Positions 2,434 through 63,680 are shown, counted from the first letter of the stretch. The stretch: DNA of 64,000 bases from a virus (IMGVR_UViG_3300017747_005082:9618-73617), one strand, 5' to 3'. Notes: generated by a model not told the origin, from the letters alone. Made by a program: numbers and translations.

Positions 2434-2645
2434 TTATCTATATTATTTTTATTGAATTTATTTAATCTATATTTAGCTTTTTCTTCAACTTTACCTGGAC
2501 TACATAAAGGGCAACTACAAGGTTTTCCTGTAGTCTTTAATTTATAATTCTGTCTGTTTTGAATTTTAGAACAATTATACCATTGTTTTAATCTTTTAAT
2601 ATATTTGTAATATCCTTTAGTTCTACGTTCTAATTTATTCATCAT
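2430..2645 (-). CDS. small basic protein with CxC-xxC motif
   Basis: Lys/Arg-rich, TGKPCSCPLCS. Confidence 0.5.
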   Translation of the reverse strand: MMNKLERRTKGYYKYIKRLKQWYNCSKIQNRQNYKLKTTGKPCSCPLCSPGKVEEKAKYRLNKFNKNNIDK

Positions 2646-2810
2646 TAAGAGCTATATAATTTCTTAATTTTTCAGCAGCTTCAATATATTCTTTTCTTAT
2701 TTGGTGAAATTTTTCATCTTTGATTTCATCAAAATCAGAATAATCTTCAAAAGTATAACCAAAACCTTCATTATATATTATAGATGTAACATAATCTTTT
2801 TCACTTCTAG

Positions 2811-3332
2811 TCATATTTTATTTTTAAATATTTTTTTCATTTCTTCTTCAGTCAAACATTCTAGATCATTATTATTTCCTGTCAAAACTTTAATTATTGC
2901 TTGTCCTAAATCTAATTCATCTCCTACCCCCCATTCATTATAACTAAAAAGAACATTTCCATCTTCCTCTAAAACCCTTATAAAATCATTACTATTTTGA
3001 AAATGAACATAAAGATTTTTATATTCTGTTGAACCATAAGGTCCTTGAGTTACATATTGAATTTTTTTATAAATATTACTCATTATTTATTTTATATGAG
3101 CTAATTTTTGTAATCTTTTTACCTCTTTCAATTCTTGAGGTTGTGAAGTATTATCAACTATAGAATCATAATTATCCATAGTTAATATATTTCCCTCTTT
3201 AGATAAAGATAATATATTTTCTGTTACTTTATGAAGATCCATATCATCTTTAGCATCCTCTCTAGCATATTCTAATAAGCGAATAAATAATGGTATATCT
3301 ACCACTATTTTATCTGTTGGGTTAAAGTTCAT
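2811..3332 (-). other. two small hypothetical CDS (2811-3083, 3087-3332)
   Basis: Tightly packed minus-strand ORFs. Confidence 0.55.
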
Positions 3333-3342
3333 TTTTATATTT

Positions 3343-3726
3343 TTATATTTTTATTTTAAATTCAATATTAGTTCTCTTCTCTTCAATAAAATAATCAATT
3401 ATTCTTACTTCTTTTCCTTGTTCCTCAGCCCATTTTATTTCCTGTTGGACACCTTTTGATTTTTCAATCAAATTTAACCCATCATATCCTACAATATTAA
3501 CAACCCAAATTTCATCAGCCCATCTTACAAATTCTTCATCTTGTCCTAACCAAACATCATAAGTATGTTCTACCATTTCTGTTTTCCAAATTGGATAACT
3601 ATGACTTATTGGAGAAAATACAAAATATTTTCCTTTTGCTATTAATAAAGATGCCACTTCATTAGCACATTTAAAACTTAAATCCTCTATATTAGAAAAA
3701 GGGATAGCTAAATATATTTTTTTCAT
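3343..3726 (-). CDS. DUF1937 / nucleoside-deoxyribosyltransferase-like fold protein
   Basis: KIYLAIPFS, VFSPISHS, SKGVQQEIKWA pattern. Confidence 0.55.
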   Translation of the reverse strand: MKKIYLAIPFSNIEDLSFKCANEVASLLIAKGKYFVFSPISHSYPIWKTEMVEHTYDVWLGQDEEFVRWADEIWVVNIVGYDGLNLIEKSKGVQQEIKWAEEQGKEVRIIDYFIEEKRTNIEFKIKI

Positions 3727-3831
3727 TTTTATTTTAATATATGAATTAAAAAAATAAAATCCAAATTTTATAATATTTCTTTTATTTCAAAATTTTATAT
3801 TATACGAAAGTTCCTTTAAATATCAAAAATA

Positions 3832-3848
3832 GGACTCAAATTGAGTCC
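3832..3848 (-). terminator. intrinsic terminator-like hairpin
   Basis: ggactcaa/ttgagtcc inverted repeat just downstream of a CDS, T-run on minus strand. Confidence 0.6.
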
Positions 3849-3858
3849 AGAATTTATT

Positions 3859-4818
3859 TTACCATTTTTTACATGACCAATATCTTGCTTTCCATTTTGG
3901 TCCTGGATTCTCACAATTATGCCTTGCTCTAAAAGCTTTTCGTCTAACAGGATTGTTTTTCTTTATATTCATTCCTTTAGCTCCAAAATTTACTTTTACA
4001 ACATTTCCTTTTTCATTTTTAACATATACTTTGAATTTTTTGGAATCACCTTGCATCGGTTTATTTAAAGTAACTTTTCTACCTTGATATTCAGATTCTT
4101 CTAAAATTGATTCTTTTAAATCAGAACTACATTTTTTTAATTCTTCTAAAAATCCTTCCATTTCTTCATCATTAATAGTATATTCTTTTATTGTACTATC
4201 TATTTTGTATTGTTTTCCATTGATTTTTAAAGCCTCTAAACCATCAATATTAATCATACGATATCCTTTAGGTCCATTTCCTATTTTTAAATCATAAACA
4301 GGTATAACTCCTTTATCTTTTGGAGAATAAGGTAATTCACCACCAGAAGTATATTTTCTTACCCCAGTCATTCCATTCATTACTCGTTGTTGTCCATCTT
4401 TTTTAGTAAAAACAGCAGTAAATATTTTTCCTTTATATGATAATAACTCTCTTGCTTCTTCCCTACTTATATATTCTATTCCTTTAGGTTCTACATCACT
4501 TTTTGGTTCTGTTTTTTTAGTTGGAGGAATACGTTTTGAAGTAGGAGGTTCATCAGGTTCTACCTCAGCAGCAGGTTCTTCTTCAGAATCTTCATCATCT
4601 ATCTCAGGATCTTGAATATCATCAGGTTCAATAATTATTTCTTCTTCATCTTCTACATTTTCTTCATCATCCTCATCTCCTTCAACTTCTTTTAATAATT
4701 GATTATATTTTAATAATTCAATTTTTTCCCATACTAAACCTCTAACATATCTCATGTCATATTTAGTATTTTTAGTTAAATCAAGAATTTGGTTAGCTAT
4801 TTCTGAAAGTTTTATCAT
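3859..4818 (-). CDS. multidomain phage protein (acidic linker, SH3-like domain, conserved basic C-terminal domain)
   Basis: Acidic D/E tract; C-terminal YQGRKVTLNKP...RARHNC...ARYWSC resembles a domain in T4-like/large phages. Confidence 0.5.
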   Translation of the reverse strand: MIKLSEIANQILDLTKNTKYDMRYVRGLVWEKIELLKYNQLLKEVEGDEDDEENVEDEEEIIIEPDDIQDPEIDDEDSEEEPAAEVEPDEPPTSKRIPPTKKTEPKSDVEPKGIEYISREEARELLSYKGKIFTAVFTKKDGQQRVMNGMTGVRKYTSGGELPYSPKDKGVIPVYDLKIGNGPKGYRMINIDGLEALKINGKQYKIDSTIKEYTINDEEMEGFLEELKKCSSDLKESILEESEYQGRKVTLNKPMQGDSKKFKVYVKNEKGNVVKVNFGAKGMNIKKNNPVRRKAFRARHNCENPGPKWKARYWSCKKW

Positions 4819-6116
4819 GATAATTTAAGGAAAACAGATGATTCTTCTAATTGGGAAGAAGCATAATTTATTATTTCTGTTATTATTTTATTTTTTATAT
4901 CTTTTGGTTGATTTAATATATTAGATAATAAATTTAATCCAAGTAATTTAGATACTTTCCAATCAATATTTTTTTCTTGTATAAATATATTGAAAGATCC
5001 TCCTATACCACCAACAAAATCTCCCAATAATGTGAATAAAACCATTTCTGCATATGTTGGGTCTTCTTCCCAAATTAATTTAATCTCTTTGGCTGTTTTA
5101 AGTTTAATATCAAACTTATTTAATATAGTATTTATAGCACCAAATCCTATTTTACCATGAGAAGCAGTTTTACCTAAAATCTCTCCTGCCCAATTTGTAG
5201 CAAAATTAAATGTTCTAAAACATATTTTTCCATCATTATATAATATATTTATATCTTTTGATTTTAATGTTGTTTTAAAACCTTCATAAGTATATTCTTT
5301 TCTCATTTTTCCTTTATTTACTACTTTAATATTTGGTTCTTTTCCTAGTTTTTTAAGCGATACTCCAATTAATTCTTTTTTATCAAACATATCTTCTACT
5401 TGTTGATTTAATTCTTCTAAACTAGATGAAAACTGCGTATATAAAACATTTTCCTTTACAAACCATATATCTGATGGATTCCATTTATCAGATTGAAAAC
5501 CTACGTTGATTTCACGGTAAGAATCATATAATTTATTTATAAGTTGAGAATCTCTATGATGTTCAAATTCTTCATTATCTAAATACTCATAAAGCATATT
5601 TGAACTTGTTAAAAATGATTGTCTCCAAGTAGGATTTTGAGAAAAATCAAATATTTCTTCTAGTTCAGTAGATGTTTGACAAAATTGATATGATTCAGAA
5701 ATAGCAGTGTATGTTATATCTATATTATCAATATAAGATTTTTTAACATTAGTTGCTAAAGCATTAAACACACATTGAGTTGATTCTTGTAGAGCTGTGT
5801 TTTTTGAGCCTGCTCCTATTCCTGTACCAGCTCCAAATTCCTCAGTTTTCTTAAAATTAGATAATGCAATTAATCCAATTTCGGTATCAAATAATTTTTT
5901 ACCACCACTTAATTCTTTATAATTTTTCTCCTCCAAAAATTGAATTCCAGGAGAAGATTTTAATATAGTTAATAAAGAACCATCTGTTAATTCAAATGGT
6001 TCTTCTTTATTTATTTTTTCTAAAAATCTTTCTCCTCTATCTTTATATAAACCATAAAATTCATGATTAGAATGATACGGCTTTTCTAATTGGGAATGGG
6101 ATAAAGCTACACTCAT
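4815..6116 (-). CDS. putative restriction-endonuclease-fold protein
   Basis: TALQES, DKWNPSDIW, LIGVSLKK pattern consistent with PD-(D/E)XK-like fold. Confidence 0.4.
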   Translation of the reverse strand: MSVALSHSQLEKPYHSNHEFYGLYKDRGERFLEKINKEEPFELTDGSLLTILKSSPGIQFLEEKNYKELSGGKKLFDTEIGLIALSNFKKTEEFGAGTGIGAGSKNTALQESTQCVFNALATNVKKSYIDNIDITYTAISESYQFCQTSTELEEIFDFSQNPTWRQSFLTSSNMLYEYLDNEEFEHHRDSQLINKLYDSYREINVGFQSDKWNPSDIWFVKENVLYTQFSSSLEELNQQVEDMFDKKELIGVSLKKLGKEPNIKVVNKGKMRKEYTYEGFKTTLKSKDINILYNDGKICFRTFNFATNWAGEILGKTASHGKIGFGAINTILNKFDIKLKTAKEIKLIWEEDPTYAEMVLFTLLGDFVGGIGGSFNIFIQEKNIDWKVSKLLGLNLLSNILNQPKDIKNKIITEIINYASSQLEESSVFLKLS

Positions 6117-7573
6117 TTATTCGTCTTCATCTTCATATTCGTCTTCTTCATCATCTTCTTCATCAGAAAATACAGCACTTAATATATCTTCAGTACTAGC
6201 TTCTGGATTTTCATCTTCAGCTATATCACTAAATTTATCCATATATTTAGTAATTATTTCTACCGGTAAACCCATTTTTTTAGATAAATTTAAATACATT
6301 TGTTCTGCATCATATATATATTCTAGTTCATAATTTATATCATTAATATGATTATAAAATATTTGTTTTATATCTTCTTTAGATAGATCTTGATTTTCAT
6401 TTAATATTTTTATTCCTGCTAATTGTTGCATTCTAGCAACTTCATTTAATTGTTTCATTTTATAATTTTAAATTTTTTAGGAGGTTTTGGTACTTCTACC
6501 TCTTGTAATTCTTCTTCAGATTCTTCATTATCAGTTTCTTCTGTTTCTTCGCCAGGTTCTGATGTTAAATCACTTACAAATTCATCTTTCATATCTTTTT
6601 CATTAGAATCTTCTTCACCTGGGCCTTCGGAACCTGGAGGCATACCCATTAATAATAGATCAGTGATAGCTTTCATAGCATATTCTTCATCTTTAATATT
6701 CATTAAATGATATTGTTTTCCAGCTATTTTAGCTATATAAGCTTTAGGATTATATGTAAGATAAAAAGATTGACCATTATGTAATAGAATTTTAAATGTT
6801 GTTGGTTTTGGAGCCATTACATATATCCCTGTTAGATAATCTCTAAACACAGAAGTCATTAGTTCTTCTAGAGTAGCCTCTAAAGAAGGATATTTTTTAA
6901 TTATATATTCTAAAGGATCTTTTTCAAATGTTAATATTTCCTCTTTACGATTTTGTATTTCATTATCAATTTCCTCACTAAGTATTTTTTTTAATGTCAT
7001 TGGTTGTTCTGTAATAAACTTACCGTCTATTTTTTTAATACTATTTAATGGTTTATAGAAAATTTTATCATTATTATCTAAAGTTAAATAAGCGTGAGTA
7101 AAATTATTTGCTATATTTTTAAGATAATAAGTCTTAGGATCATTATTTAATATAACCCTAGAGCCTCTACCTAACTTATTAATAATATTATCGTAAGCCA
7201 TTTATTTTAATAATTTAGCTTGGAAATTTCTAGCTAATTTAGAAGGACGTTCAAATTGTTTTTCCCCTTCTCCAAATTTAATCTTATCAATAGCCTCTGT
7301 TAATGATTTTGCTTTAACATTAAAATCATAATCTATTTTATTATCATTTTGATGAATAATAAAATATACATTATAATAATTTTCTTTAATTAAAGCATTA
7401 GAATAACCATCTCTGATAGCAACTTTCAATTTTGTTCTATCTAGTTCAGGAAAAGTGTTTAATACTGAAGAATATATATTTTGTATAGTTTTATCATCTT
7501 CAGCAAAACGTTGTTCCGGAGATTCTCCAGTTATTACTTCTTTAATTATATCTCTTAATCTACTTTTCTTCAT
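6117..7573 (-). other. three hypothetical CDS (6117-6458, 6455-7201, 7202-7573)
   Basis: Contiguous acidic ORFs with overlapping start/stop. Confidence 0.6.
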
Positions 7574-36785: not shown

Positions 36786-38396
36786 TTAAATTACTATTGC
36801 TTCAATTTCATCAATTAACGCTTTATATCCTTTACAATTAGATTGAATTAAATCAAATATCTTATCTGACCAACCAGCAATTTGTAAAACATTTAATGAT
36901 TTATCAAATACTGAAGTTCCCTTTGTTTGTTTAATATCAACACATATAGTATTACATTGTGGATTTACTTGTTTGAATTTTTTAAATAATATTTGAAATG
37001 ATCCTAAACCAGCATTTGAAGTATTATCCCATCCTCCAATTCCTCCAGAACTAATAACCATATCTGAAAATATAACTAAATTATCAACTTTTGTGTTATT
37101 TTTAATAACATCGTTTAAGAAATAATATAATCCATTTTCTGTATTGGCTCCACATTCTTTTCCTTTTTCAAATGAACGTTTATTAAAATCTAATAAACCT
37201 AATTTTCTATCCATATTAATTGAAATTAATTCATTTCCAAATAATCCCATATAAACATCTCTTTGGGAATATGCTAACATAGAACCAAATAAATTCCCAA
37301 TCATAGCAGTTGTTGTTTTAGAAAAAGCGGATATTTTAGAACTACCTCCTGCATCTCCTCTTACGGAACCTGAATGATCTACTAATATGGCAGTATTACC
37401 TTCTAATGCTGGAATATTATCTACAGAATATTCTAATGCTTTTTCTAATGCTTTTAATACTTTTTCTATAAGTACTTTAGGTTTCATATCTGATTCAAAA
37501 GCTATTTTAGAAGATGAAGTAGTTGGGTTTATATCTTCTACTTCTTTATATGCTGATACAAATCTAAAAGGTAATAATTTAGATTTTAACACTTTATCTC
37601 TATTAGTTAATTGACTAATAGCGTCATCTACTTTATCAGGAGCTAATAGAATAATATTTCTTAAATTTCTTACCAAATTCATCATTGGCATTCCTTTTAC
37701 ATTATCTAATACAGTAGTAATAGCTTCTTCTTTAAGAGTTTCAACTTTAACTCCTGTAGATTTAGCAATTTGACCTGCTTTAGACATTTCTTTTTCAAGA
37801 ATTTTAGTATTATATAATCCATCTAAAGATTCTCCTTTTATTAAACGTTTATACGCTTCTTCATTAATTTGAGAAGGTACTGGATGTGTTAAATTAACTA
37901 AATCTACTAATGAAATTCCTTTTTTAGCCATTTTATACTTATCTATTAAATAAGGATCCATTGACTCTAATTTAGATTTAAATCCTCTCTTCATAGCACT
38001 TGCTATTTTTGTATTTCCTTTTGAGAAATAATAAGCTAGAATTTCTGACATATCATCAGGTCTAGAAGCAATTTTTCTATAAAATCTTGAAGCATATTCT
38101 TTTCCTGATAATCTTGGAGCTAATTCTCCCGAAAGTAAATGAGTTACTGATCTCATATTAGCATCATTTCTTAGATATAAAGCTAATTTTGCTACAAATT
38201 GTTCATCAACAACAGAAGCAGCTTTATTTATTCTATCAACTACTTCTTTTTCTTTTTCATAATATGAATTTGAAAGAAATGTAGTCAAACAAGTTGATAC
38301 TAATTCTTCTTTAGCGCTTAATTGATACGCTTTTTCTCCCATTTTATTTACTGTAGTTGGAACTACTGGTTCTTTTGTTTTGTTAAATTTCGACAT
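36786..38396 (-). CDS. rsr: Ro60/Rsr TROVE-domain RNA-binding protein with C-terminal vWA domain
   Basis: FVAKLALYLR....MRS, KYK......SLVDLVNLTHP, LLPFRF..AY, LVDHSGS MIDAS, VIFSD. Confidence 0.9.
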   Translation of the reverse strand: MSKFNKTKEPVVPTTVNKMGEKAYQLSAKEELVSTCLTTFLSNSYYEKEKEVVDRINKAASVVDEQFVAKLALYLRNDANMRSVTHLLSGELAPRLSGKEYASRFYRKIASRPDDMSEILAYYFSKGNTKIASAMKRGFKSKLESMDPYLIDKYKMAKKGISLVDLVNLTHPVPSQINEEAYKRLIKGESLDGLYNTKILEKEMSKAGQIAKSTGVKVETLKEEAITTVLDNVKGMPMMNLVRNLRNIILLAPDKVDDAISQLTNRDKVLKSKLLPFRFVSAYKEVEDINPTTSSSKIAFESDMKPKVLIEKVLKALEKALEYSVDNIPALEGNTAILVDHSGSVRGDAGGSSKISAFSKTTTAMIGNLFGSMLAYSQRDVYMGLFGNELISINMDRKLGLLDFNKRSFEKGKECGANTENGLYYFLNDVIKNNTKVDNLVIFSDMVISSGGIGGWDNTSNAGLGSFQILFKKFKQVNPQCNTICVDIKQTKGTSVFDKSLNVLQIAGWSDKIFDLIQSNCKGYKALIDEIEAIVI

Positions 38397-38961
38397 GACT
38401 TAAAATTTTAATATTTAATATTTGTTCTAAATATTCAAACATAGGTTTGAATTCTTCTCTATATAATTCTTTTTTAATAATAGGATATTCTTCTTGGTAT
38501 TTATTATACATGGTTGAATTAGTAAGTAAACCATAAGAAGTATTTGCAATTATATCACATAATTTAACAAATAATCCTAAACGACATTCTTTTAAACCCA
38601 TAATATATTCAATTCCATGTCTTTCTTTTCTATTTTTACCTTTTAATTCAGTACAAGAATAAATAACTTCTGCAACTTCTTTAGAAATATTAATTTTATT
38701 AGATCCATTTGGATAATGTTCTTCAAAATATATAGAATATTGAAGTATATCATTATATGTTATTCTGGCATCTTCAATCAAATCATGCCCCCAAGCTCCA
38801 TTTAATGCTATACATAAATCTTTTGGATTTAATATAAATTGAAATTTTTCTACTTGTTTTGCTACTAGATTTAAATGAAATGAATATGGTAAATTTTTAT
38901 CATATTTTTGATTACAATTAATATCATGTTGTTGTTTACAAAATTCTATAAATTTACTCAT
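38383..38961 (-). CDS. RelA/SpoT-type HD hydrolase (small alarmone hydrolase/Mesh1-like)
   Basis: QKY...PYSFHL..V, AWGHDLIED, VKLCDIIAN. Confidence 0.7.
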   Translation of the reverse strand: MSKFIEFCKQQHDINCNQKYDKNLPYSFHLNLVAKQVEKFQFILNPKDLCIALNGAWGHDLIEDARITYNDILQYSIYFEEHYPNGSNKINISKEVAEVIYSCTELKGKNRKERHGIEYIMGLKECRLGLFVKLCDIIANTSYGLLTNSTMYNKYQEEYPIIKKELYREEFKPMFEYLEQILNIKILSHVEI

Positions 38962-39128
38962 AATCTCTATTTTTTAAATTAATATTATTATTTTCTTTTC
39001 TTTGAGATGGAGTAAAAAACATTGCTCGTTTAGGTCCTTTATCTATTTTATTTTTTAGAATAGATCCTACTCCATAACTATTTTTTAATTTTTTCTTTTT
39101 ATTTTGACTAGCCATAATTTTTAAAAAT

Positions 39129-39163
39129 AAAAAGGGTTAAAGTTGCTTAGCATCCTTAACCCT
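39129..39163 (-). terminator. terminator-like hairpin between the Y-like RNAs and the HD-TROVE genes
   Basis: agggttaa/ttaaccct stem followed by TTTTTATTTTT on minus strand. Confidence 0.5.
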
Positions 39164-39171
39164 GTTAATTT

Positions 39172-39310
39172 TAGTAGAGAAATCTAGTAGAGTGTTAATC
39201 TAAATGATTGTTTAAGAGACAATTGCCTTACCACTTGGCTAATTTTCCATGCAGAAAATATAGGATTCGAACCTATGAAAACGAAGTAACTCTAGCTATT
39301 ACAACTACTA
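39172..39310 (-). ncRNA. Y-RNA-like element with circularly permuted tRNA-like domain (YrlA-like)
   Basis: Outer TAGTAG/CTACTA stem, bulged-C helix, TACTTCG, then T-arm, loop-closed acceptor, D-arm, anticodon-like arm. Confidence 0.7.
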
Positions 39311-39319
39311 ATATAATTA

Positions 39320-39406
39320 ACAAGGGAATTATTGAACTGAGAATTTGGTTGAAGATTAATTTTAGAATAATTATGTTCGAAGTATCTCAAATTTCTTACC
39401 ACTTGT
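39320..39406 (-). ncRNA. minimal Y-RNA-like element
   Basis: ACAAG/CTTGT stem, TGGTAA, GAA(A)TTTG/CAAATTC stem, TACTTCG. Confidence 0.55.
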
Positions 39407-39415
39407 ATATGCGAT

Positions 39416-39550
39416 TAAGTAAGGGAAAGTTTAGAAAAGGTTGTTATAGTTTTTTGTGGGAGTTGAACCCACGACCTTAAATTCCAAATATTTACGCTCA
39501 ACCAACTGAGCTTAAAAAACGAAGTAACTTTTCTAGTTACCACTTACTTA
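39416..39550 (-). ncRNA. Y-RNA-like element enclosing a complete tRNA-like cloverleaf (TTG loop) at 39448-39520
   Basis: TAAGTAAG/CTTACTTA, TGGTAA, TAGAAAAG/CTTTTCTA, TACTTCG, then GTTTTTT/AAAAAAC acceptor with D, anticodon and T arms. Confidence 0.7.
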
Positions 39551-39564
39551 TATTTATCAATGAA

Positions 39565-39610
39565 CTTATTATATTGTGAATATATGAATTAAAAATTTAT
39601 AATCCAAATA
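39565..39610 (-). promoter_or_regulatory. Bacteroidota-type promoter driving the Y-like RNA cluster
   Basis: TTGGATT...TTCATATATTCACAATATA, matches the repeated promoter motif. Confidence 0.6.
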
Positions 39611-39652
39611 TATTTTAAGTAATTTTTATATTATTTATATAAAAATAATTTG

Positions 39653-39726
39653 TGGCCAAGAAAGGTAACGATCCTTCTATCTTCTGATTATGAGTCAGTT
39701 GCTTTTACCATCTAAGCTACATGGCC
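39653..39726 (-). tRNA. tRNA-Met/Ile2 (CAT)
   Basis: Cloverleaf, loop CTCATAA, atypical T-loop ATCGTTA. Confidence 0.75.
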
Positions 39727-39909
39727 AATTTTGTGGAGAATAGGTACTCACCCCACTATACTTTCCCATACCTAATAACTTAAGATACTAAAGCTTTAAA
39801 TTTTAATACACTTTATAGCCCTGTAGTTTTCGCTGTTCTCGAAACCGTATCTACTTAGGAGACTTCTGCTATAAAATTCACATAAAACTGATGTTAAGTA
39901 TTAAAAATA

Positions 39910-40176
39910 TTATTCTGTGTATTCTAAGATATATTTATCAATTAATGATTGAGATATTTCTTTTTTAACACATTTTTGTCTTTCTTTACCTTTCAAAACA
40001 GCGTAAGCTTCATATAAATGTCTTAATTTTTCTCTATTACTAAAAACATTATAAGTGGCTTGATCTGCTTCTACTGTTCTTATACCGGTAAAATGAATTG
40101 TTTTTCTTTGTGGTTTTAAAACTACTTGTTGATCAACTAATTGTTTAATATCTGTTCTAATTTTTGTATATTTCAT
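39910..40176 (-). CDS. hypothetical basic protein, translationally coupled (ATGA) to the Pth2-like gene
   Basis: Its ATG overlaps the TGA of 40173-40514. Confidence 0.65.
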   Translation of the reverse strand: MKYTKIRTDIKQLVDQQVVLKPQRKTIHFTGIRTVEADQATYNVFSNREKLRHLYEAYAVLKGKERQKCVKKEISQSLIDKYILEYTE

Positions 40177-40514
40177 GATAATGTTAATTTTAATTTTTTA
40201 AATAATTGTTTGTGTAATTCTGATGGAAGTGATTCAATAGCAATAGCTGTTAATTGATTACCTATATCAGGTTCTAAAAACACACTATATTTAATTTTAA
40301 GTTCATCTAATTTTGATCTTAAGATCTCAATTTTGAACTCTGATTCTTCCAAACAGCATAAATAATTACTTTTAAATTGCCATTCTTTAAATTCATGATA
40401 ATACTTTACAGCAAAATCAGCTAACGCATGAGCGGATTGTACTACCTTATAACCAGGTGTTAAATCCTTTCTTGTAACAATAGTGATAAAATCACCTTCT
40501 TTAATCTACTTCAT
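40173..40514 (-). CDS. peptidyl-tRNA hydrolase 2 (Pth2)-like protein with in-frame TAG at codon 3
   Basis: Hand translation MK*IKEGDFITIVTRKDLTPGYKVVQSAHALADF...FLEPDIGNQLTAIAI...; 114 codons, TAG at 40506-40508; absent from the ORF track. Confidence 0.8.
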
Positions 40515-40537
40515 AATAAAAATTATTTAATTAGTAG

Positions 40538-40611
40538 TGATTTTAATGGGACTCGAACCCATAACCTTCAGTTTTAGAGACTGCTGCTCTTACCAATTGA
40601 GCTATAAAACC
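40538..40611 (-). tRNA. amber suppressor tRNA (anticodon CTA)
   Basis: Cloverleaf GGTTTTA/TAAAATC, D-arm GCTC/GAGC, loop CTCTAAA, T-arm ATGGG-TTCGAGT-CCCAT. Confidence 0.9.
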
Positions 40612-40831
40612 AATTTTCATTACATGAGATTACTGTAACTAGATTTTAACTGTTTTTTTTCTTAAAAATTCAACAATTAGTGTCTTACCACATGAACTAA
40701 AATCAACCTTTCCGTGGAGGAGTAGGTAGTTCTCCTTTTATCCAATCGGCCCCTTCTGTAAAATCGTAGACGGAACAACTATAACTTTGTTAATGTAAGT
40801 TACAAAACATCAAGTATCTCTTACTTATTCG

Positions 40832-40901
40832 TAGCGGTCGCAGGAATCGAACCTGACCTTAGGGTTATGAGCCCTTCGTGCTACCCTTACACTACCCCGC
40901 G
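40832..40901 (-). tRNA. initiator-like tRNA-Met (CAT), atypical
   Basis: CGCGGGG start, GGG/CCC anticodon stem, mismatch at 1:72; shortened variable/T region. Confidence 0.7.
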
Positions 40902-41036
40902 ATATATTTTTATTATTAAACGGTGACAGCTCTTCATGTTTTTTGAACATTATGTCAATAATATGTAATATAAATCCGCTGTACCTAAAGAGTCTCGTAT
41001 CTCTCATTGATAGCCGCCTCCGTTTAATAATTTTTG

Positions 41037-41110
41037 CCGTCCTTATGGGACTCGAACCCATGATCTCCTACGTGACAGGCAGGCATCCACTCCAACTGGA
41101 CCGAAAGACG
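41037..41110 (-). tRNA. tRNA-Asp (GTC)
   Basis: Cloverleaf, loop CTGTCAC, G73. Confidence 0.9.
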
Positions 41111-41202
41111 AAGCTTGGTGTTTTATATTAGTTTCCATTTTTTTAATATAAAAAATCGACCACCGCCTCAAACACCATGAGGGATAAATGCTTTAAAAAT
41201 TG

Positions 41203-41275
41203 TGGATACGCAGGGATTCGAACCCTATCTTCCTAATTGCAAATCAGGAGCATTTGCCATTTATGCTAGCGACCC
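41203..41275 (-). tRNA. tRNA-Ala (TGC)
   Basis: Loop TTTGCAA, G3:U70, imperfect lower acceptor stem. Confidence 0.8.
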
Positions 41276-41279
41276 ATTG

Positions 41280-41352
41280 TAAGAGAGAATACTAAGAAGA
41301 GTTTATTGTTAAAATCCATTTATCGAAGTAACTCTATCTTTTACTACTCTTA
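41280..41352 (-). ncRNA. minimal Y-RNA-like element
   Basis: TAAGAG/CTCTTA stem, TAGTAA, GA(T)AGAGTT/AACTCTTC bulged helix, TACTTCG. Confidence 0.6.
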
Positions 41353-41353
41353 G

Positions 41354-41427
41354 TAACGCATATGGGATTCGAACCCACGATCTTATCATAGAAAGTGATA
41401 CGTGTTAGCCAACTACACTAATGCGTC
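41354..41427 (-). tRNA. tRNA-Glu (TTC)
   Basis: Cloverleaf, loop CTTTCTA. Confidence 0.85.
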
Positions 41428-41606
41428 ATTTTAAATAAGTTGTAGAGGCTTTTAGGGATAATTATAGGCAACTTTTCACCGTAAACTCGGCTTCCCAAAC
41501 TCATTTGCACTTATATCTTATCTTTTACGCGTGCAACTTATTATATTGTAAATATATGAACTTATATTTTATAAATCAAATATTTTTTAAAATATTTTTA
41601 TTTTTG

Positions 41607-43211: not shown

Positions 43212-43490
43212 AAATTTACCTAGATTTCGTTCTAGGAAGACGTAAATAATAAATTCCTGGAACCTATTATTTAACAGCTTATTAAGCCGCTATTGCAAAG
43301 TTGTCCTTTACGTTTATATTAATCTCTATCTATTACTTAATCTAATGTCAAAGCCATTCCTCCCCTTATACAGTAGAGATAACTATAAGTTATCTCAACA
43401 CCCTAAAATACACATGGTATAAGGGCTTAGTGGAGAGGCTGGGTTTCGAACCCAGGTCCATTAAAATGTTAATAAACGTCAACAATTAAT
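43212..43490 (-). ncRNA. ssrA: circularly permuted (two-piece) tmRNA
   Basis: 3' piece GAC-CTGGG-TTCGAAA-CCCAG-CCTCTCC-A (to 43431) precedes 5' piece GGGGAGG-AATGGCTTT-GAC (from 43365); G3:U70; tag frame 43282-43311 VKDNFAIAA* TAA TAA; outer ends approximate. Confidence 0.88.
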
Positions 43491-46199: not shown

Positions 46200-46207
46200 A
46201 AATATTG

Positions 46208-46278
46208 TTTCTCTGCAGGGACTCGAACCCCGACGATAAAATCCAAAATTTTAGATGCTACCATTACATCACAGAGAA
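46208..46278 (-). tRNA. tRNA-Gln (TTG)
   Basis: Cloverleaf, loop TTTTGGA. Confidence 0.85.
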
Positions 46279-46284
46279 ATATTG

Positions 46285-46373
46285 AGGAAGAAGTGGGACT
46301 CGAACCCACAACCCAGTTACTCACCGAATTACTACTTTTCAAGAGTAGCCCCTCATCCAGCCGGATTCCTTCC
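46285..46373 (-). tRNA. tRNA-Ser (TGA)
   Basis: Class II cloverleaf, loop CTTGAAA. Confidence 0.88.
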
Positions 46374-49552: not shown

Positions 49553-49719
49553 TGATAATGACAGGATTCGAACCTGTAATTAGGATTTGCTTTTACCCGC
49601 TCTTGATTATCTGCTGACGGCCCACAACAAGTACATCCTATTAATTGTGGTGTTTTACTGTTATTCATTATCTAGCTCAAAGCTACTACAGTCAGCGTCT
49701 ACCATTCCGCCACATTACC
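49553..49719 (-). ncRNA. tRNA-like RNA with greatly expanded anticodon and variable regions (167 nt)
   Basis: GGTAATG/CATTATC acceptor, Leu-type D-arm, ACAGG-TTCGAAT-CCTGT T-arm; GCTGAC/GTCAGC stem encloses two sub-hairpins. Confidence 0.75.
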
Positions 49720-56791: not shown

Positions 56792-59700
56792 AATTATTTA
56801 TTTTTTAATTATTAATTTATATTGTAAATATATGAAACAATTTTAATAAATCAAATGCCTAAGATGTATATTACTTTTCTATTTTACGTAATTCCGTCAA
56901 CGAAAGGGTATATCAACTTGCCTCTATATTATCTTTGAGATTTTTCACCATTTCCTCTAATGTAGCTAGTAAATCTAATTCTTCTTGTTTATTACCATAA
57001 GTAATAATTTCTCTGCTAATGAATTTATCTATTCTTTGCATCCAATTTATTTTAGCTTTACCTTCCATGATTTGTTTTATTTATTGGTGTCAAAATAATA
57101 TTTTCTATAACCACTTTCCCATTTTTTACGTTCAATTTTTGTCATTTTTCTTAAATGCCAATTTGGTAACATATGAACATAATCATCTATAAAAGAATAT
57201 TCAATTCCTGGTGCTAATGATTCTTTATGTCCTTCTTTAAATGTAGGATAATAAGGGTCTGCTAATGATATTTCAATTATTTGACCATCATAATCAGCAG
57301 TTTGGTATGTATCAATTAGAGATGATCTAATTTCAATTGAATAATGAACATATTTAAGTTGATTTTTTGTTTTCATAACTGTAAAATAATTAATTATTAT
57401 TTAATCTTATACTATAAATATATGAAAAAAACAATTATAAAACAACGTGGATTTTAATTATTTTATTGCGAGTCAACAATTGCGATGTAGGTCGAGAGGT
57501 AATCGATATTTTCCGCTTGTACTTGCTTATATACCGTATATTTTTTATAGGGAGTTCAGGCATGACTGAAAGAAACCTAGATACCAGGTCTGAACTTAAC
57601 TACCTCTTCCCTCGTTTCTCACTTCTTACTACCACTTTTCAACCCCAATATATACGTATCTCACCCTTCCTTAGTTGTACCTCACACTTTATTTAGATCG
57701 CTCTACCCTAAAGTTTAGATGCATCTAAAAATTCATTTAGTCTGTAATATTCCAAGGTACATTCGTTACATCAATATCAATTCTACAAGCATTATCTAGT
57801 TTTGCTTTTCTTACCATATATGGAATATTAGCATCTTTTAATGATTCTATAGTTTTAATATAACTTTCACTATCTACTATTTCCTCTACCCACATTAAAT
57901 TGTCTCCTTTTAATTTCTTAGAAGCATATTTATTGTTTTTATAAAGGGTTCCTACAATAGATTTAATTGATGTAACATAGGTATCAGGTGTTCCAGGGGG
58001 ATGATATAATACTTGAATAATTAATGTATTTTCAGACCCACAATGATCTTTATATGCTCTCATAACCATTTTGATTTAATTAATCTTTTTTATACTCATT
58101 ATAGAATTGTATAATATCTTCCTCATTAAAACACTCAGTTAAATAGTTAATTTTTTGTGAATTACTTAAATCAGAAATTTCTGCATCACTACAAAATTGT
58201 TTATTTTTAATTAATAAAAGAATTTTTACTCTTACAGATTCCATAACTATATTGTTTTAATTATTATTACAGTGTGAATATACAAAAGTAGTTTTAAATA
58301 TCAACGACCTGATTTATTCAGCATCGTGATCGTAATTAGTTAATTCGTTTAATAATTTCTCAGCATCTTCCTGTGACAGTGTCTTAAATATATCAGCATA
58401 ATCTAATTCATGATTTAACATTACTTCCTCAGAAATATATTTTTCCAATATAGGATTTAAATCAATATCATCATAAGTATCATACAATTCAAAGAATAAT
58501 TCAACAATTGAATCTACGGTAAGTTTATTTGCTTTCATAGCCTTTATTTATATTACCGATGCACAACCATTAAGTAAATATAAGATTTCATCTATATTTT
58601 CTTGTACATACTCTTTAGTACTTTCATCACATTCCCAAGCATAAGATACACTATTAATATTTTTATAGGGTGTATCATATTCTCCAAATTCATTTCTTTT
58701 TTCAGAAATCATTTCTAATATGCTTTTGAATTGTTCTTCCTCTGTTCTACCTAAAGTATATTTTTTTAAATTAAGAGGAATTTGTTGTAAAATTTGCATA
58801 ACAACAGAATGTATATAATCTTCTAATGATATATTCATAACTTTAATTATTTAATTATTATAGTGTAAATATACGAAATAGTAATTAATAATCCAATACC
58901 TTAATTATTAGGATAATTTGGTACTAGAAATGTTAAAATACTAGAAATATTCTCCCCTACTCTTTCATAAAATTTACAGTTATGAAGAAATTTTACTAGT
59001 CCTAATTTTGTTTTTTGATTTAGATGTTTTCTATATAATAATCTCATTTCTTCATCATTAAATAGTTTATCTACCTCTACATAACCTTTTTGTAATAATT
59101 CCTCTTTACTTAGAAGATTTAATTCAGCAGCTATTTTTTTCATAACTATAATGTTTTAATTATTTAAATTTCTATATTGTAAATATATGAAGTTAAATTA
59201 TATAATCCACTACCCTTACTACATTTCCACTCCCAAAAATAGAATGGTCTGTTCCACTATACCATAATTTTTTAATACATTCTTTTACATCATATGGAAT
59301 TGATTCATCTTCACCTGAAGTGATTACCAATACCTTAAATATATCTTCATATTCATTAGTTATATGAACTTTCTCTACATAAATTAATCCTCCTTCCCCA
59401 CAATCATATTCAAATAAGTTAGATTCATAATCATCTTCCTCATATGATTTGTTTATTTCTTGGGATAATATTTCTGGTGTTTCACTACATAGATTTACTC
59501 CATATTTTCCTACTATATATTCCGTTTTCTGTATACATAACTATTATATTTAACTATTATGTTGTAAACATACGAATTATTATTTATAACTCAAATACCT
59601 ATTATGGATATTTTTATTTTTCTATATCTTGTTCTATTTTCTCAAAATATTTTTTAAATTTTTTCCATTGTTTTTTTGAAATATCATTATACGTTTCAAC

Positions 59701-60856
59701 GTTTTTGATAATTCTTTTAATATCTTTTTGATATTTTTTATTATGAAGGTATTTTTCTACTTTAATTATTAAATAAGTAGCTTCTTTTTCTGGAATTGTA
59801 TAAATTGAATTCATAATAAAAATATTTTGTTGTAATTACTATGTTGTAAATATACGAAATTCAACTTAATAATCCTATACCATTATTGTGTATATTTTAA
59901 CTCAACCATTTTAACCCAGCTAATACAATACAAAATGCGATAGCAGCTGATATCATTAACCAACCACACCCTTTCATTTCTTCTGAATCTTTACTCATAA
60001 TATTTTTATTTTAAACCTTCATTATACCATTTTATAATTCCTTTGAAAATAATAATAAAATCAACTTGATCAAAGTCCTCTAATTCATCAACAACAAAAC
60101 CCCATCTGTCATAACTTACATGAATAGTATCCTTTCCGTTATTAATTTCCAATACCATTTCATCTCCACCAGTACCTCCATAATTTTCTTTGATATAATC
60201 CCAATTTTCTTTAAAGGGAATTTGAGCTTTTTCTAACTCTTGTCCCAAAAAACGAGTATTATCTAGGGTCTGTTGTTTAGTTGGACCTGCAGGACCTTTG
60301 TATGGATTGTAAGTAAATACTTTTGGAGAATATTCCTCATACAATTCTTGTCTTCTATTATATTCTTCTAACAATTCTTTTTTGAATAAAGATAATGGTT
60401 TAATAATATCAGAAGGTAAATATTCTGATACATGAAGGAAATCATGATTTATAGTATTGTCTATTCTATTCAATAGACATAATAATTCTTCTAATGAATT
60501 ATCACTTATAAGATTTAATTTTTTCATAACTATATTATTTAAATTTCTATATTGTAAATATATGAAATATTATTTATAATTCCAATTCCTTCAATTTAGT
60601 TTATATAAAATACTGCTAAACCATTCTCATATGCCCAACTAGCAACTAATAGTAAATCTTTAATTTGTTGTACCCAGACATCTCCTTGTATAGCTAATCT
60701 AAAACTACCATTACTTAATTTAGATAAATTGAATAAATTATAATTATTTTGTGTAAGTAGTAACCTAATTTGATCTTCTCCCATAATATTAATTATTTTC
60801 ACTAAAAAAAAGCATCAAAATTAATTGATGCTTTCCTTCCCTTAAATCTAACTTAA

Positions 60857-62730: not shown

Positions 62731-63680
62731 TAAGAGTTTATTATTTATTTCAATGAACTTATTAAATCTTATATTGTAAATATACGAATTTACCTTATAA
62801 TATCCAATACCTTAACTAAGTAAAATTACTTTTCTCACCATTTTATCCTTAGGTGTAGTTTCATCTTCCAAACATTCTTCATATTCTTCTTCTGTAGCAA
62901 TTTGATCTGTTCGATGATAATCGGAGTATTTTGTATATCCTTCAGATGCATCATTGATTTTCCCTGCTAATTCAGTTCTCCAATAATCTCCTGAAGGGTA
63001 TGAAAATTTAACTTCCATAGTTCCATCTTGATCTTCTTCCTCAAAACCTTCCAAATAAAATATTAAATCTTTTCTAGTCATAACGTTTATGTTAATATTA
63101 ATTATAATGTAAATATATGAAATTCAACTTAATAATCCAATACCTATTTTATAGGTCTTAATGATTTATCAATTAGAGACAAGACCATTAAATCAGTAGC
63201 TAGCCATTGTAGCATTTTTACTTTATCTTCCTGACTAAATTTATTAGCGTAAGCTTTAAATTTTTCCTCATTAAAAGAAGTAAATTTTTTATTAATAGTT
63301 ACTTTTGGATAACCCTCTGCTAATTCTCCAAAAGCATAAAGAGTTTCTATTTCTTCAAAAGTTAAAGTTTCCCATCTTCTTCCAATACCTATAAATTCAG
63401 TATTTGTATCACATAATTGGGTTTTGGATAAACTAGATAAATTACTCCACCATAAAATAATTTTTTTCATAGATAATTCATTGTTTGTTAACCCAAACTT
63501 ACCACAATGATTACAAATTCCAGTTTGTACTCCTTCTTTTTCTTTATTGCAGTGATTGCAAATTACTTTAGATGTTTCATTCGTTTTCATCTTTTCTTAT
63601 TTTAATTATTATGTTGTAAATATATGAAACGTAATTTAATACTCCTATTCCTATATTAATATATCCTATTGGATCTAATA

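What the first reader, a model, noticed from the sequence alone, without database searches (positions are those of the whole stretch)
36786..41352. Phage Ro60 with a family of at least four Y-RNA-like repeats sharing a new scaffold
Seen: four elements (39172-39310, 39320-39406, 39416-39550, 41280-41352) share the same design: stem 1, T[T/G/A]GTAA internal loop, stem 2 often with a single bulge, TACTTCG, variable cargo domain, stem 2', pyrimidine-rich strand, stem 1'. Three are in tandem between their own promoter and the HD-TROVE genes. Stem sequences differ between copies but keep their pairing. Established: Ro60/Rsr binds a bulged helix of Y RNAs, bacterial YrlA RNAs mimic tRNA, and some mycobacteriophages encode Ro with Yrl RNAs. 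The reported GNCGAA-type motif is not what I see here. Inference: a distinct Y-RNA class where one Ro-binding handle carries interchangeable cargo (none, whole tRNA, permuted tRNA).
Basis: partly seen in the sequence, partly recalled or inferred. Interest (0 to 1): 0.85.

Follow-up and report, generated by a model that had tools for sequence, protein, structure and literature searches.

The report
Phage Ro60 with four Y-RNAs
A 180-kb freshwater phage encodes a Ro60 RNA-binding protein and four small RNAs that share one conserved base-paired "handle" around different bodies (a scrambled tRNA look-alike, a whole tRNA, or almost nothing). The same handle sits beside Ro60 genes in most of 80 related phage contigs, including human-gut crAss-like phages where some copies are annotated as ordinary tRNAs.

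Summary
Four minus-strand elements (39172-39310, 39319-39407, 39418-39548, 41280-41352) share one design. It reads: stem 1, a bulged U, two pairs (RG with CY), URA, stem 2, G-W-UACUUCG, cargo, stem 2', a U-rich loop, stem 1'. The composite motif occurs 4 times against 0.07 expected, and nowhere else in the 180.5-kb genome.

Three copies form their own unit between a promoter-like motif and a terminator, just upstream of the HD phosphohydrolase and Ro60 (TROVE) genes. The fourth lies between two tRNAs.

In 80 Ro60-encoding viral loci, 77 carry the motif, always on the Ro60 strand, and 191 of 210 copies lie within 1 kb upstream. Both stems covary: 16 of 17 pairs show double changes, with 86.5% of cells paired against 59.9% in shuffles.

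These are most likely Ro60-bound Y RNAs. They form a divergent branch of the YrlA/YrlB kind rather than a wholly new scaffold:
- The two-stem layout and the UUAC (YUAY) junction match YrlA.
- UACUUC also occurs in the YrlA of a Gordonia phage and the YrlA-like RNA of Bacillus phage G.

What differs:
- The 5' motif is RGURA instead of GNCGAA.
- Some cargo is a complete, un-permuted tRNA body.
- The genes lie in tandem arrays.
- The family is common in crAss-like phages.

Transcription and Ro60 binding were not tested. This scan has noted the same motif on other DNA before.

The parts
36786..38396 (-). Ro60 (TROVE plus vWA) protein gene, 536 aa
   Evidence: Pfam PF05731 TROVE, E 2.6e-15, 57 bits against a 23-bit cut-off. 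phrog_850 'RNA-binding protein', E 4.9e-37 over residues 1-521. Best solved-structure match is Thermus phage phiLo Ro60 (9KOP/9L5Y), E 1.5e-20, with LVDHSGS aligned to its LVDVSGS metal-site motif.
38383..38961 (-). HD-type metal-dependent phosphohydrolase gene, 192 aa, overlapping the Ro60 start by 14 nt
   Evidence: phrog_990, E 9e-24. It has a GHDLIEDA motif in the translation. No Pfam hit even at E 10. The same gene precedes Ro60 in L001 and L002.
38954..39115 (-). 53-aa lysine-rich ORF, first gene of the ORF-HD-Ro60 block
   Evidence: ORF list; no family hit. Coding status unproven.
39123..39163 (-). Intrinsic-terminator-like hairpin plus U-run ending the three-RNA unit
   Evidence: Fold gives -15.8 kcal/mol, z -3.6, followed by UUUUUAUUUUU. 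The simple terminator scan missed it; I attribute this to the length of its loop.
39172..39310 (-). W1: handle plus circularly permuted tRNA-like body (T arm, closed acceptor hairpin, D arm, anticodon-like arm with CUU)
   Evidence: R1 55.4 bits. Rfam YrlA 27 bits, E 0.0068, and tRNA 28.7 bits, both sub-threshold. Fold.
39319..39407 (-). W2: handle with a 35-nt body that is not tRNA-like
   Evidence: R1 50 bits; fold; no tRNA-like part.
39418..39548 (-). W3: handle enclosing a complete, un-permuted tRNA-Gln(UUG) body at 39448-39520. The G of UACUUCG is tRNA position 1, and the acceptor stem has 7 bp.
   Evidence: R1 74 bits. ARAGORN calls tRNA-Gln. Rfam tRNA 60 bits. Fold z -2.6. Only 67% identical to the phage's other tRNA-Gln(UUG) at 46207-46278.
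39565..39588 (-). Promoter-like 24-nt motif TTCATATATTYACAATATAATAAG ahead of W3
   Evidence: Seven copies on the minus strand of the window, none in shuffles. Its role as a promoter is inferred.
41280..41352 (-). W4: minimal handle RNA (21-nt body) wedged between tRNA-Glu (41353-41427) and tRNA-Ala (41204-41275)
   Evidence: R1 57.6 bits; fold; tRNA coordinates. It lies 0 nt after tRNA-Glu and 4 nt before tRNA-Ala, so tRNA processing would set its ends (inferred).

Best explanation
The four elements are genes for small non-coding Y RNAs that partner the phage's own Ro60 protein. They form a divergent branch of the bacterial and phage YrlA/YrlB kind. W3, W2 and W1 are made as one transcript from a phage promoter and end at an intrinsic terminator. 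They are then cut apart at spacers about 8-10 nt long. W4 is released from a tRNA operon when RNase P and the tRNA 3' processing enzymes trim its neighbours. Each RNA closes its two ends into a handle: stem 1, a bulged U, two pairs (RG with CY), an asymmetric loop (URA opposite a U-rich strand), stem 2, then G-W-UACUUCG. This handle is the docking site for the Ro60 ring, in the way Ro60 binds the bulged helix of other Y RNAs. The variable body sticks out and acts as the effector module. A tRNA-shaped body would recruit tRNA-binding host factors or an exoribonuclease such as PNPase, as shown for Deinococcus, Salmonella and Thermus phage phiLo. That would let the phage direct RNA decay or quality control during infection, for instance over its 25 or more tRNAs. 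Shown here: the sequences, the covarying structure, the conserved motifs and the strict linkage to Ro60 genes. Inferred: transcription, processing, Ro60 binding and the downstream function.
For: The family is real, with the motif at 4 against 0.07 expected and only four copies in the 180-kb genome. Linkage to Ro60 is strong. In 80 Ro60 loci from viral contigs, 77 carry the motif and none of 210 copies is on the other strand. Of those copies, 191 lie within 1 kb upstream of Ro60, and 57 loci have three tandem copies there. Whole-record scans of six genomes of 102-351 kb place every R1 hit 0.1-14 kb from Ro60 on its strand. Selection acts at the RNA level. RNAalifold on a plain MAFFT alignment finds stem 1 plus the bulge, with 7 of 8 pairs compensatory. 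On the model-fitted alignment of 68 distinct sequences, 86.5% of cells pair against 59.9% in shuffles and 47-59% when slid, and 16 of 17 pairs show double changes. Each stem 2 pairs with its own partner at -10.3 kcal/mol against -4.3 for foreign partners. Single-stranded positions are nearly invariant regardless of cargo: bulged U 67/68, G9:C208 68/68, and U24, C26, U28, C29 and G30 each 68/68. The handle persists next to Ro60 proteins only 30-32% identical, in roughly 50% GC contigs. Weaker forms occur in crAss001 and Bacillus phage G. The protein is a Ro60 homologue of phiLo Ro60, which binds upstream Yrl RNAs and PNPase in vitro (PMC12135203). Y RNAs within 4 kb of Ro60 on the same strand are the published rule (PMC4201824).
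Against: There are no expression data. No run on record as RNA held more than a small share of the stretch, and the single read-laying run was lost to a filter error. No binding data exist. The published Ro-contact motif GNCGAAN0-1G is absent. Rfam YrlA is far below threshold (27 against 69 bits), and the metazoan Y_RNA model gives no match at E 10. Single-copy folding energies are not exceptional. W3 looks like a fully competent tRNA-Gln, so at least that copy could simply be a tRNA precursor. The genome has no RtcB, Rnl2-type ligase or CCA-adding enzyme, so the RNA-repair context seen in Salmonella is missing.
Confidence: 0.78

Rival explanations
1. The elements are tRNA and tRNA-derived genes with a base-paired leader and trailer that serves processing, stability or ordered maturation in phage tRNA operons. 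Ro60 lies nearby only because it belongs to the same tRNA island.
For: W3 holds a complete tRNA-Gln with a 7-bp acceptor stem starting at the G of UACUUCG. A tRNA-Pro-like copy in the 282-kb phage is equally complete. W4 and several copies in relatives sit inside tRNA arrays. GenBank annotates two copies in csAssE-Sib as tRNA-Tyr and tRNA-Lys, and one in cr111_1 as tRNA-Gln. Chen 2014 showed that a YrlA can be cut by RNase P and receive CCA.
Against: 21 of 77 members have no tRNA-like body, yet keep the same handle and its invariant unpaired bases. In the gut-phage group the 'tRNAs' have acceptor stems of only 5-6 pairs. Permuted bodies cannot yield a tRNA. Most of the 25 ordinary tRNAs in this window lack the handle. 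In 57 of 80 loci three copies sit directly before Ro60, where there is no tRNA array.
Confidence: 0.1
2. The handles are cis-acting Ro60-binding sites in the leader of the Ro60 messenger. They allow autoregulation of Ro60 synthesis and are not free-standing RNAs.
For: In most relatives the three copies lie 100-500 nt before the Ro60 start codon on the same strand.
Against: In this genome a strong terminator and two other genes separate W1 from Ro60. W4 is 2.9 kb away in a tRNA operon. In the 282-kb and 351-kb phages the copies lie 4.5-9.5 kb downstream of Ro60. In crAss001 they follow the gene.
Confidence: 0.05
3. The repeats are a selfish or mobile DNA element (a miniature inverted-repeat element or homing-endonuclease-associated repeat) that happens to have terminal inverted repeats.
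For: There are multiple copies with paired ends. In L001 the copies alternate with GIY-YIG-like endonuclease ORFs, and a transposase-like insertion sits before Ro60 in L003.
Against: The stems covary with different sequences in every copy, including G-U pairs, which indicates selection on RNA rather than DNA. All copies have one orientation relative to Ro60. Only four copies exist in 180 kb. The cargo includes functional-looking tRNA modules.
Confidence: 0.02

Closest known systems
YrlA (Rfam RF02553), the tRNA-mimicking Y RNA of bacteria and phages (Chen et al. 2014, PMC4201824)
   Same: It is encoded within a few kb of Ro60 on the same strand. The ends pair into stem 1, internal loop and stem 2. 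A YUAY (here UUAC) leads into a tRNA-like domain with the T arm first, then a closed acceptor hairpin, then the D arm; W1 has all of these. UACUUC itself is present in the Gordonia phage Neville YrlA and the Bacillus phage G YrlA-like RNA.
   Different: GNCGAAN0-1G is absent from all four copies; RGURA with a bulged U stands in its place. The Rfam model scores 27 bits against a 69-bit cut-off, and my model R1 scores the YrlA-type RNAs of the Gordonia phage and phage G at 21 bits or less. W1 and several relatives keep a full anticodon-like arm. Many members carry an un-permuted tRNA body or none.
YrlB / Yrn2-type short Y RNAs (Salmonella, Mycobacterium smegmatis, Deinococcus; PMC4201824)
   Same: This is a second, smaller Ro60-bound RNA that shares the Ro-binding motif but lacks the tRNA-like domain, encoded next to YrlA. 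W2 and W4 fit that role.
   Different: The binding motif has a different sequence. Here there are up to four or five copies per genome, in tandem under one promoter-like motif or inside tRNA operons.
Thermus phage phiLo Ro60 with Yrl1 and Yrl2 (PMC12135203, 2025)
   Same: It is the closest protein with a solved structure (E 1.5e-20). Its two Y-like RNAs are encoded just upstream of the phage Ro60 gene, with a stem, bulge, stem design. Binding to Ro60 and host PNPase was shown in vitro.
   Different: The phiLo RNAs were picked out by a CGAA motif in a large internal bulge. Here CGAA follows UACUU in only some copies (1 of 4 in this window). No tRNA-like cargo is described for phiLo in the passages I read.
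Metazoan Y RNAs (Rfam RF00019)
   Same: The paired 5' and 3' ends form a helix with a single bulged pyrimidine, followed by two pairs and an internal loop. Ro60 recognises such a bulged helix, mainly through its 5' strand GGUCCGA (as cited). The phage motif GGUGA/GGUAA resembles a shortened GGUCCGA.
   Different: There is no Rfam match at E 10. Metazoan Y RNAs, as far as I recall, have no tRNA-like body. The resemblance in sequence is my own reading, not a test.

Membership tests
Ro60 / Rsr (TROVE) proteins | TROVE domain | tested here: met
   Pfam PF05731, 57 bits against a 23-bit cut-off, E 2.6e-15; phrog_850 over residues 1-521.
Ro60 / Rsr (TROVE) proteins | C-terminal vWA domain with a DxSxS metal site | tested here: met
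   LVDHSGS at residues 338-344 aligns with LVDVSGS of phiLo Ro60. No separate Pfam vWA hit.
Ro60 / Rsr (TROVE) proteins | Ring-shaped HEAT-repeat fold | not tested
   No structure was predicted. Sequence homology to 9KOP/9L5Y covers residues 18-285.
YrlA (RF02553) | Score at or above the Rfam gathering threshold (69 bits) | tested here: not met
   W1 scores 27 bits, E 0.0068. W2, W3 and W4 give no match at E 10.
YrlA (RF02553) | GNCGAAN0-1G motif near the 5' end | tested here: not met
   Absent from the 5' part of all four copies (sequence). The position is occupied by U-RG-URA.
YrlA (RF02553) | Conserved YUAY leading into the variable-loop side of the tRNA-like domain | tested here: met
   UUAC in W1, W3 and W4; AUAC in W2. 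It aligns with CUAc of the Rfam consensus. Feature as described.
YrlA (RF02553) | tRNA-like domain in the order T arm, closed acceptor hairpin, D arm | tested here: met
   Met for W1 only. W3 has the normal tRNA order; W2 and W4 have no such domain.
YrlA (RF02553) | Encoded within about 4 kb of Ro60 on the same strand | tested here: met
   W1-W3 lie 0.8-1.2 kb and W4 2.9 kb upstream of the Ro60 start, all on the minus strand.
Y RNAs in general | Physical binding by Ro60 | not testable with these tools
   Needs EMSA or RIP. Only linkage and covariation are available.
Y RNAs in general | Expressed as a stable small RNA | tested here: inconclusive
   One metatranscriptome run held 4% of the sampled words.
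tRNA (RF00005), for the body of W3 | Cloverleaf above threshold with a 7-bp acceptor stem and an anticodon loop | tested here: met
   60 bits against 29. ARAGORN calls tRNA-Gln(UUG). GUUUUUU pairs with AAAAAAC. No CCA is encoded. Aminoacylation is not testable.

The most novel reading that the evidence does not exclude
The handle is a portable Ro60-docking tag that phages graft onto complete, anticodon-bearing tRNA bodies. The bodies seen here are Lys, Tyr, Gln, Glu, Arg, Ile and Pro, in at least four topologies. This would make Ro60-tethered tRNA decoys, or a caged tRNA reserve, that counters host anticodon nucleases or tRNA depletion during infection. It would give Ro60/Y RNPs an anti-defence role centred on tRNA identity rather than on general RNA decay.
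Probability: 0.12. Interest if true: 0.85.

Novelty: new variant of a known kind. Interest (0 to 1): 0.6.

Why it matters
Ro60/Y RNA particles are known from animals, some bacteria and a few phages, but what Y RNAs recruit is still poorly understood. This family offers a natural experiment: one docking handle combined with many bodies, including full tRNA shapes with defined anticodons.

It is common in crAss-like phages, among the most abundant viruses of the human gut. One of them, crAss001, can be grown in culture and expresses its TROVE gene early, and it may carry weak, unconfirmed forms of the handle just after that gene.

The family is not in Rfam, and I found no paper describing it. 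Some copies are annotated as ordinary tRNAs in GenBank, which inflates phage tRNA counts.

The shift of motif from GNCGAA to RGURA alongside divergent Ro60 proteins also gives a handle on how Ro60 recognises its RNAs.

Tried and rejected
- **Expression:** no listed holder on record as RNA held more than a small share. One metatranscriptome run held 0.04 of the words.
- **Megablast** of the locus against GenBank phages gave no match.
- **Pfam on the HD protein and the 53-aa ORF** found nothing, even at E 10.
- **RNA-repair genes:** RtcB, Rnl2-type RNA ligase and CCA-adding enzyme are all absent from the genome. The Salmonella-type rsr-rtcBA context does not apply.
- **Metazoan Y_RNA and other Rfam families** gave no match over the region at E 10, apart from YrlA and tRNA.
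- **MAFFT alone** put stem 2 out of register (62% paired). A covariance model was needed to fix this.
- **My first automatic search for 3' ends** misplaced several elements and was redone with duplex energies.
- **An alternative hairpin** between GUAA and UUAC, which would exclude stem 2, was considered. I did not adopt it because the position before UAC is A in 22 of 70 handles opposite an invariant A, with no compensating change.
- **The weak R1 hit at 46269-46340** (19.7 bits) lies inside tRNA-Ser and was rejected.
- **W3's body** is not a recent copy of the phage's other tRNA-Gln (67% identity).
- **A collection-wide scan for the bare motif** was not run, because 14-16 specified bases would give hundreds to thousands of chance hits.

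Full report
**Where the window lies.** The window is bases 9618-73617 of a 180,524-bp viral genome with direct terminal repeats. The one DNA run that holds it is a freshwater metagenome. All features discussed here are on the minus strand. The region is part of a large tRNA island: 25 tRNAs by ARAGORN, including a CUA suppressor, plus a permuted tmRNA.

**The genes.**
- ORF 36786-38396 (536 aa) is a Ro60 homologue. Pfam TROVE gives 57 bits against a 23-bit cut-off, and phrog_850 covers residues 1-521.
- Its best match among solved structures is the Ro60 of Thermus phage phiLo (9KOP/9L5Y, E 1.5e-20). The vWA metal-site motif aligns as LVDHSGS against LVDVSGS.
- Upstream, overlapping the Ro60 start by 14 nt, lies a 192-aa HD-type phosphohydrolase (phrog_990, E 9e-24; no Pfam hit).
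- Before that lies a 53-aa basic ORF with no family hit.

**The observation.**
- TACTTCG occurs exactly four times in 64 kb, once in each reported element.
- GTAA-N6-14-TACTTCG occurs four times against 0.07 expected.
- The whole genome has no further copy, by pattern or by covariance model.

The three tandem copies W3, W2 and W1 (39548 down to 39172) are separated by spacers of about 8-10 nt.
- They are preceded by a 24-nt motif at 39565-39588 that recurs seven times on this strand of the window and never in shuffles.
- They are followed by a -15.8 kcal/mol hairpin with a U-run.
- So they look like a separate transcription unit ahead of the ORF-HD-Ro60 block.

W4 (41352-41280) starts directly after tRNA-Glu and ends 4 nt before tRNA-Ala. 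Ordinary tRNA processing would therefore define its ends.

**Anatomy of the handle.** With relatives in hand, the handle can be written more exactly:
- stem 1 (about 6 bp)
- a bulged U
- two pairs (RG on the 5' strand, CY on the 3' strand)
- URA
- stem 2 (about 9 bp, often with one bulge)
- G-W-UACUUCG
- the body
- stem 2'
- a 5-7-nt U-rich strand
- CY
- stem 1'

In 68 distinct sequences aligned by the model:
- The bulged U is present in 67.
- The G:C of the two-pair step is present in all 68.
- U24, C26, U28, C29 and G30 of the junction are present in all 68; A25 is present in 67 and U27 in 63.

**Comparative evidence.**
- A search with the Ro60 protein found three viral contigs. A search with an alignment of four proteins found 207 relatives, of which 80 loci were kept.
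- A simple pattern finds the handle in 77 of the 80 loci. None of the 210 copies is on the opposite strand, and 191 lie within 1 kb upstream of the Ro60 start. In 57 loci three tandem copies lie there.
- RNAalifold on an unguided MAFFT alignment of 27 diverse copies predicted exactly stem 1, the bulge and the two-pair step. Seven of eight pairs showed compensatory changes. The N:Y pair is AU in 13 sequences, GC in 13 and other in 1.
- MAFFT put stem 2 out of register. I therefore built a covariance model, R1, and realigned 77 hits. On that alignment 86.5% of cells pair, against 59.9% in shuffles and 47-59% when partners are slid. Sixteen of 17 pairs carry double changes. That alignment is fitted to the model and leans towards it.
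- An independent swap test agrees. Each stem 2 strand pairs with its own partner at -10.3 kcal/mol on average, and with partners from other copies at -4.3.
- R1 finds only the four copies in this genome (50-74 bits; next hit 19.7 bits, inside a tRNA).
- In five further whole records of 102-351 kb, every hit lies 0.1-14 kb from Ro60 on its strand.
- The handle is also found upstream of Ro60 genes only 30-32% identical, on contigs binned as Saprospiraceae and Brevinema. There the GC content is near 50% and the stems are completely different.

**The bodies.** Among 77 members I counted:
- 17 clearly permuted tRNA-like bodies, with the T arm before the D arm;
- 4 more with a recognisable T arm only, W1 among them, since my D-arm pattern missed its D arm;
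- 32 bodies that ARAGORN reads as linear tRNAs (Lys UUU 13, Tyr GUA 9, Gln 3, Glu 2, Arg 2, Ile 2, Pro 1);
- 3 with T and D arms in linear order that ARAGORN did not call;
- 21 with no tRNA-like part.

In the linear class the G of UACUUCG is usually the first base of the acceptor-like stem.
- That stem has the full 7 bp in W3 and in a Pro-like copy of the 282-kb phage.
- It has only 5-6 bp in the gut-phage group.

Other topologies exist:
- a tRNA body with no acceptor stem;
- one opened between positions 7 and 8, with the acceptor closed as a hairpin at the end (L024);
- in crAss001, a tRNA-ended molecule whose anticodon arm is replaced by the capped handle.

W1 and two copies in the 282-kb phage keep an anticodon-like arm on a permuted body.

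**Relation to what is known.**
- Chen et al. 2014 (PMC4201824) defined YrlA by five features: position near Ro60; GNCGAAN0-1G near the 5' end; a conserved YUAY that begins the variable loop; T, acceptor and D stem-loops in permuted order; and, in tested species, binding by Rsr.
- The Rfam consensus shows stem 1, a loop, stem 2, CUA, and then the tRNA-like part. The phage handle has the same layout, and its UUAC is the YUAY.
- W1 has the permuted domain. GNCGAAN0-1G is absent from all four copies.
- Rfam YrlA gives 27 bits on W1 and nothing on the others.
- Conversely, R1 gives 21 bits or less at loci whose RNAs match Rfam YrlA below its threshold: Gordonia phage Neville at 44 bits and Bacillus phage G at 36 bits.
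- Yet both of those carry UACUUC after a stem.
- Phage G has six such elements before its TROVE gene, with AGCGGUAA where this phage has AGUGGUAA.
- RGURA sits where GNCGAA sits. In its commonest form, GGUGA, it differs from GNCGA by one transition. This last point is my reading, not a test.

I therefore file the RNAs as a divergent branch of the YrlA/YrlB kind, not as members of Rfam YrlA and not as a new scaffold.

The nearest experimentally studied system is phiLo. Its Ro60 binds two upstream Yrl RNAs and forms a ternary complex with host PNPase (PMC12135203).

**Who carries it.**
- The closest GenBank Ro60 proteins are in crAss-like gut phages: cr111_1 at 55% identity and csAssE-Sib at 54%.
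- In csAssE-Sib the three R1 hits (69-77 bits) lie just before the 'Ro sixty-related protein' gene. Two of them are annotated as tRNA-Tyr and tRNA-Lys.
- In cr111_1 one hit is annotated as tRNA-Gln.
- crAss001 has four weak hits (20-25 bits) confined to the 900-nt non-coding gap after its TROVE gene. Two of them fold into the two-stem handle, and a tRNA-ended RNA overlapping a third carries the handle in place of its anticodon arm.
- That TROVE gene is expressed early in infection (PMC8375218).
- I found no paper that describes Y RNAs in crAss-like phages.
- Earlier notes of this scan report the same UACUUC junction motif and Ro60-linked handles on other genomes. So the scan has seen this family before, and I treated those notes only as leads.

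**Mechanism.** The best reading is that these are Ro60-bound Y RNAs.
- The handle docks on the Ro60 ring and the body recruits a partner.
- The linkage, the covariation and the invariance of unpaired handle bases whatever the body all point to a shared protein partner.
- Ro60 is the only gene that travels with them.
- What the particle does for the phage is inferred by analogy. It could redirect a host exoribonuclease, or perform quality control of the large phage tRNA set.
- The genome lacks RtcB, an Rnl2-type ligase and a CCA-adding enzyme, so a repair operon of the Salmonella type is not involved.

**Rivals.**
- tRNA precursors with a paired leader and trailer. This is plausible for W3 alone, but it does not explain the members without cargo, the permuted members, or those with shortened acceptor stems.
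- Cis-regulatory leaders of the Ro60 messenger. This is contradicted by the terminator, by W4, and by copies lying downstream or far away.
- Mobile DNA. This is contradicted by RNA-type covariation and the fixed orientation.

**Verdict.** The finding is a new variant of a known kind, well supported by comparison and untested at the bench. It has practical value for annotation and offers a tractable model in crAss001.

Noticed in passing
window 43282-43477 (-): Permuted tmRNA (Rfam RF04321, 60 bits against a 47-bit cut-off) inside the phage tRNA island.
   Followed up: no
window 40537-40611 (-): tRNA with a CUA anticodon, called tRNA-Pyl by ARAGORN, Rfam tRNA 70.7 bits. It is a TAG suppressor, which hints at TAG read-through or recoding in part of this phage. 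Ro60 itself has no in-frame stop under table 11.
   Followed up: no
window 49553-49719 (-): Rfam tRNA hit of 33.8 bits stretched over 167 nt. It may be a tRNA with a long insertion, or another handle-type or intron-bearing tRNA-like RNA.
   Followed up: no
window 39565-39588, 41537-41560, 58854-58877, 59168-59191, 60543-60566, 63098-63121, 63605-63628 (-): A 24-nt motif TTCATATATTYACAATATAATAAG occurs seven times on one strand and never in shuffles. It is probably a phage-specific promoter. L001 and L002 show a related TTCGTATAT motif before small ORFs.
   Followed up: partly
window 39727-39905, 40612-40832, 40901-41035, 41111-41203, 41428-41536 (-): Spacers of 90-220 nt between tRNAs have no ORF or RNA family assigned. 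The one I folded (41428-41536) is not unusually stable (z 0.29). Others may hold further small RNAs.
   Followed up: partly
L018 4503-4990 (+): A GOLLD RNA (Rfam RF02032, 152 bits against a 150-bit cut-off) lies in the tRNA array of a related 120-kb phage, 0.4 kb before one handle RNA and 3 kb before its Ro60 gene.
   Followed up: no
L100 (Bacteroides phage crAss001, MH675552) 5905-6624: The 900-nt unannotated gap after TROVE gp96 holds four weak R1 hits with UAGUGU...UACUUCA handles. One (6084-6227) is a tRNA-ended RNA whose anticodon arm is replaced by the capped handle. Published infection RNA-seq could test expression.
   Followed up: partly
L099 (Bacillus phage G, JN638751) 2510-4660: Six elements sharing [stem]-(A/U)GCGG-NAA-[..ACAGU]-UACUUC(G/A/U) lie before TROVE gp540. 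Only the first has a tRNA-like body (Rfam YrlA 36 bits).
   Followed up: partly
L096 (phage csAssE-Sib, OR575929) 2666-2738 and 2811-2884; L097 (cr111_1, MT774387) 3917-3992: GenBank tRNA-Tyr, tRNA-Lys and tRNA-Gln annotations coincide with handle RNAs (R1 41-77 bits). Acceptor stems in this group have only 5-6 pairs, so phage tRNA counts may be inflated.
   Followed up: partly
L003 2500-4720 (+): By eye, a serine-recombinase-like ORF plus a TnpB-like ORF with a CxxC zinc-finger motif (an IS-type insertion) sit directly before the Ro60 gene of the 282-kb phage. They displace the position where relatives carry their handle RNAs.
   Followed up: no
L001 340-860 and 1070-1720 (+): By eye, two GIY-YIG-type homing-endonuclease-like ORFs are interleaved with the handle RNAs and tRNAs in a close relative.
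   Followed up: no
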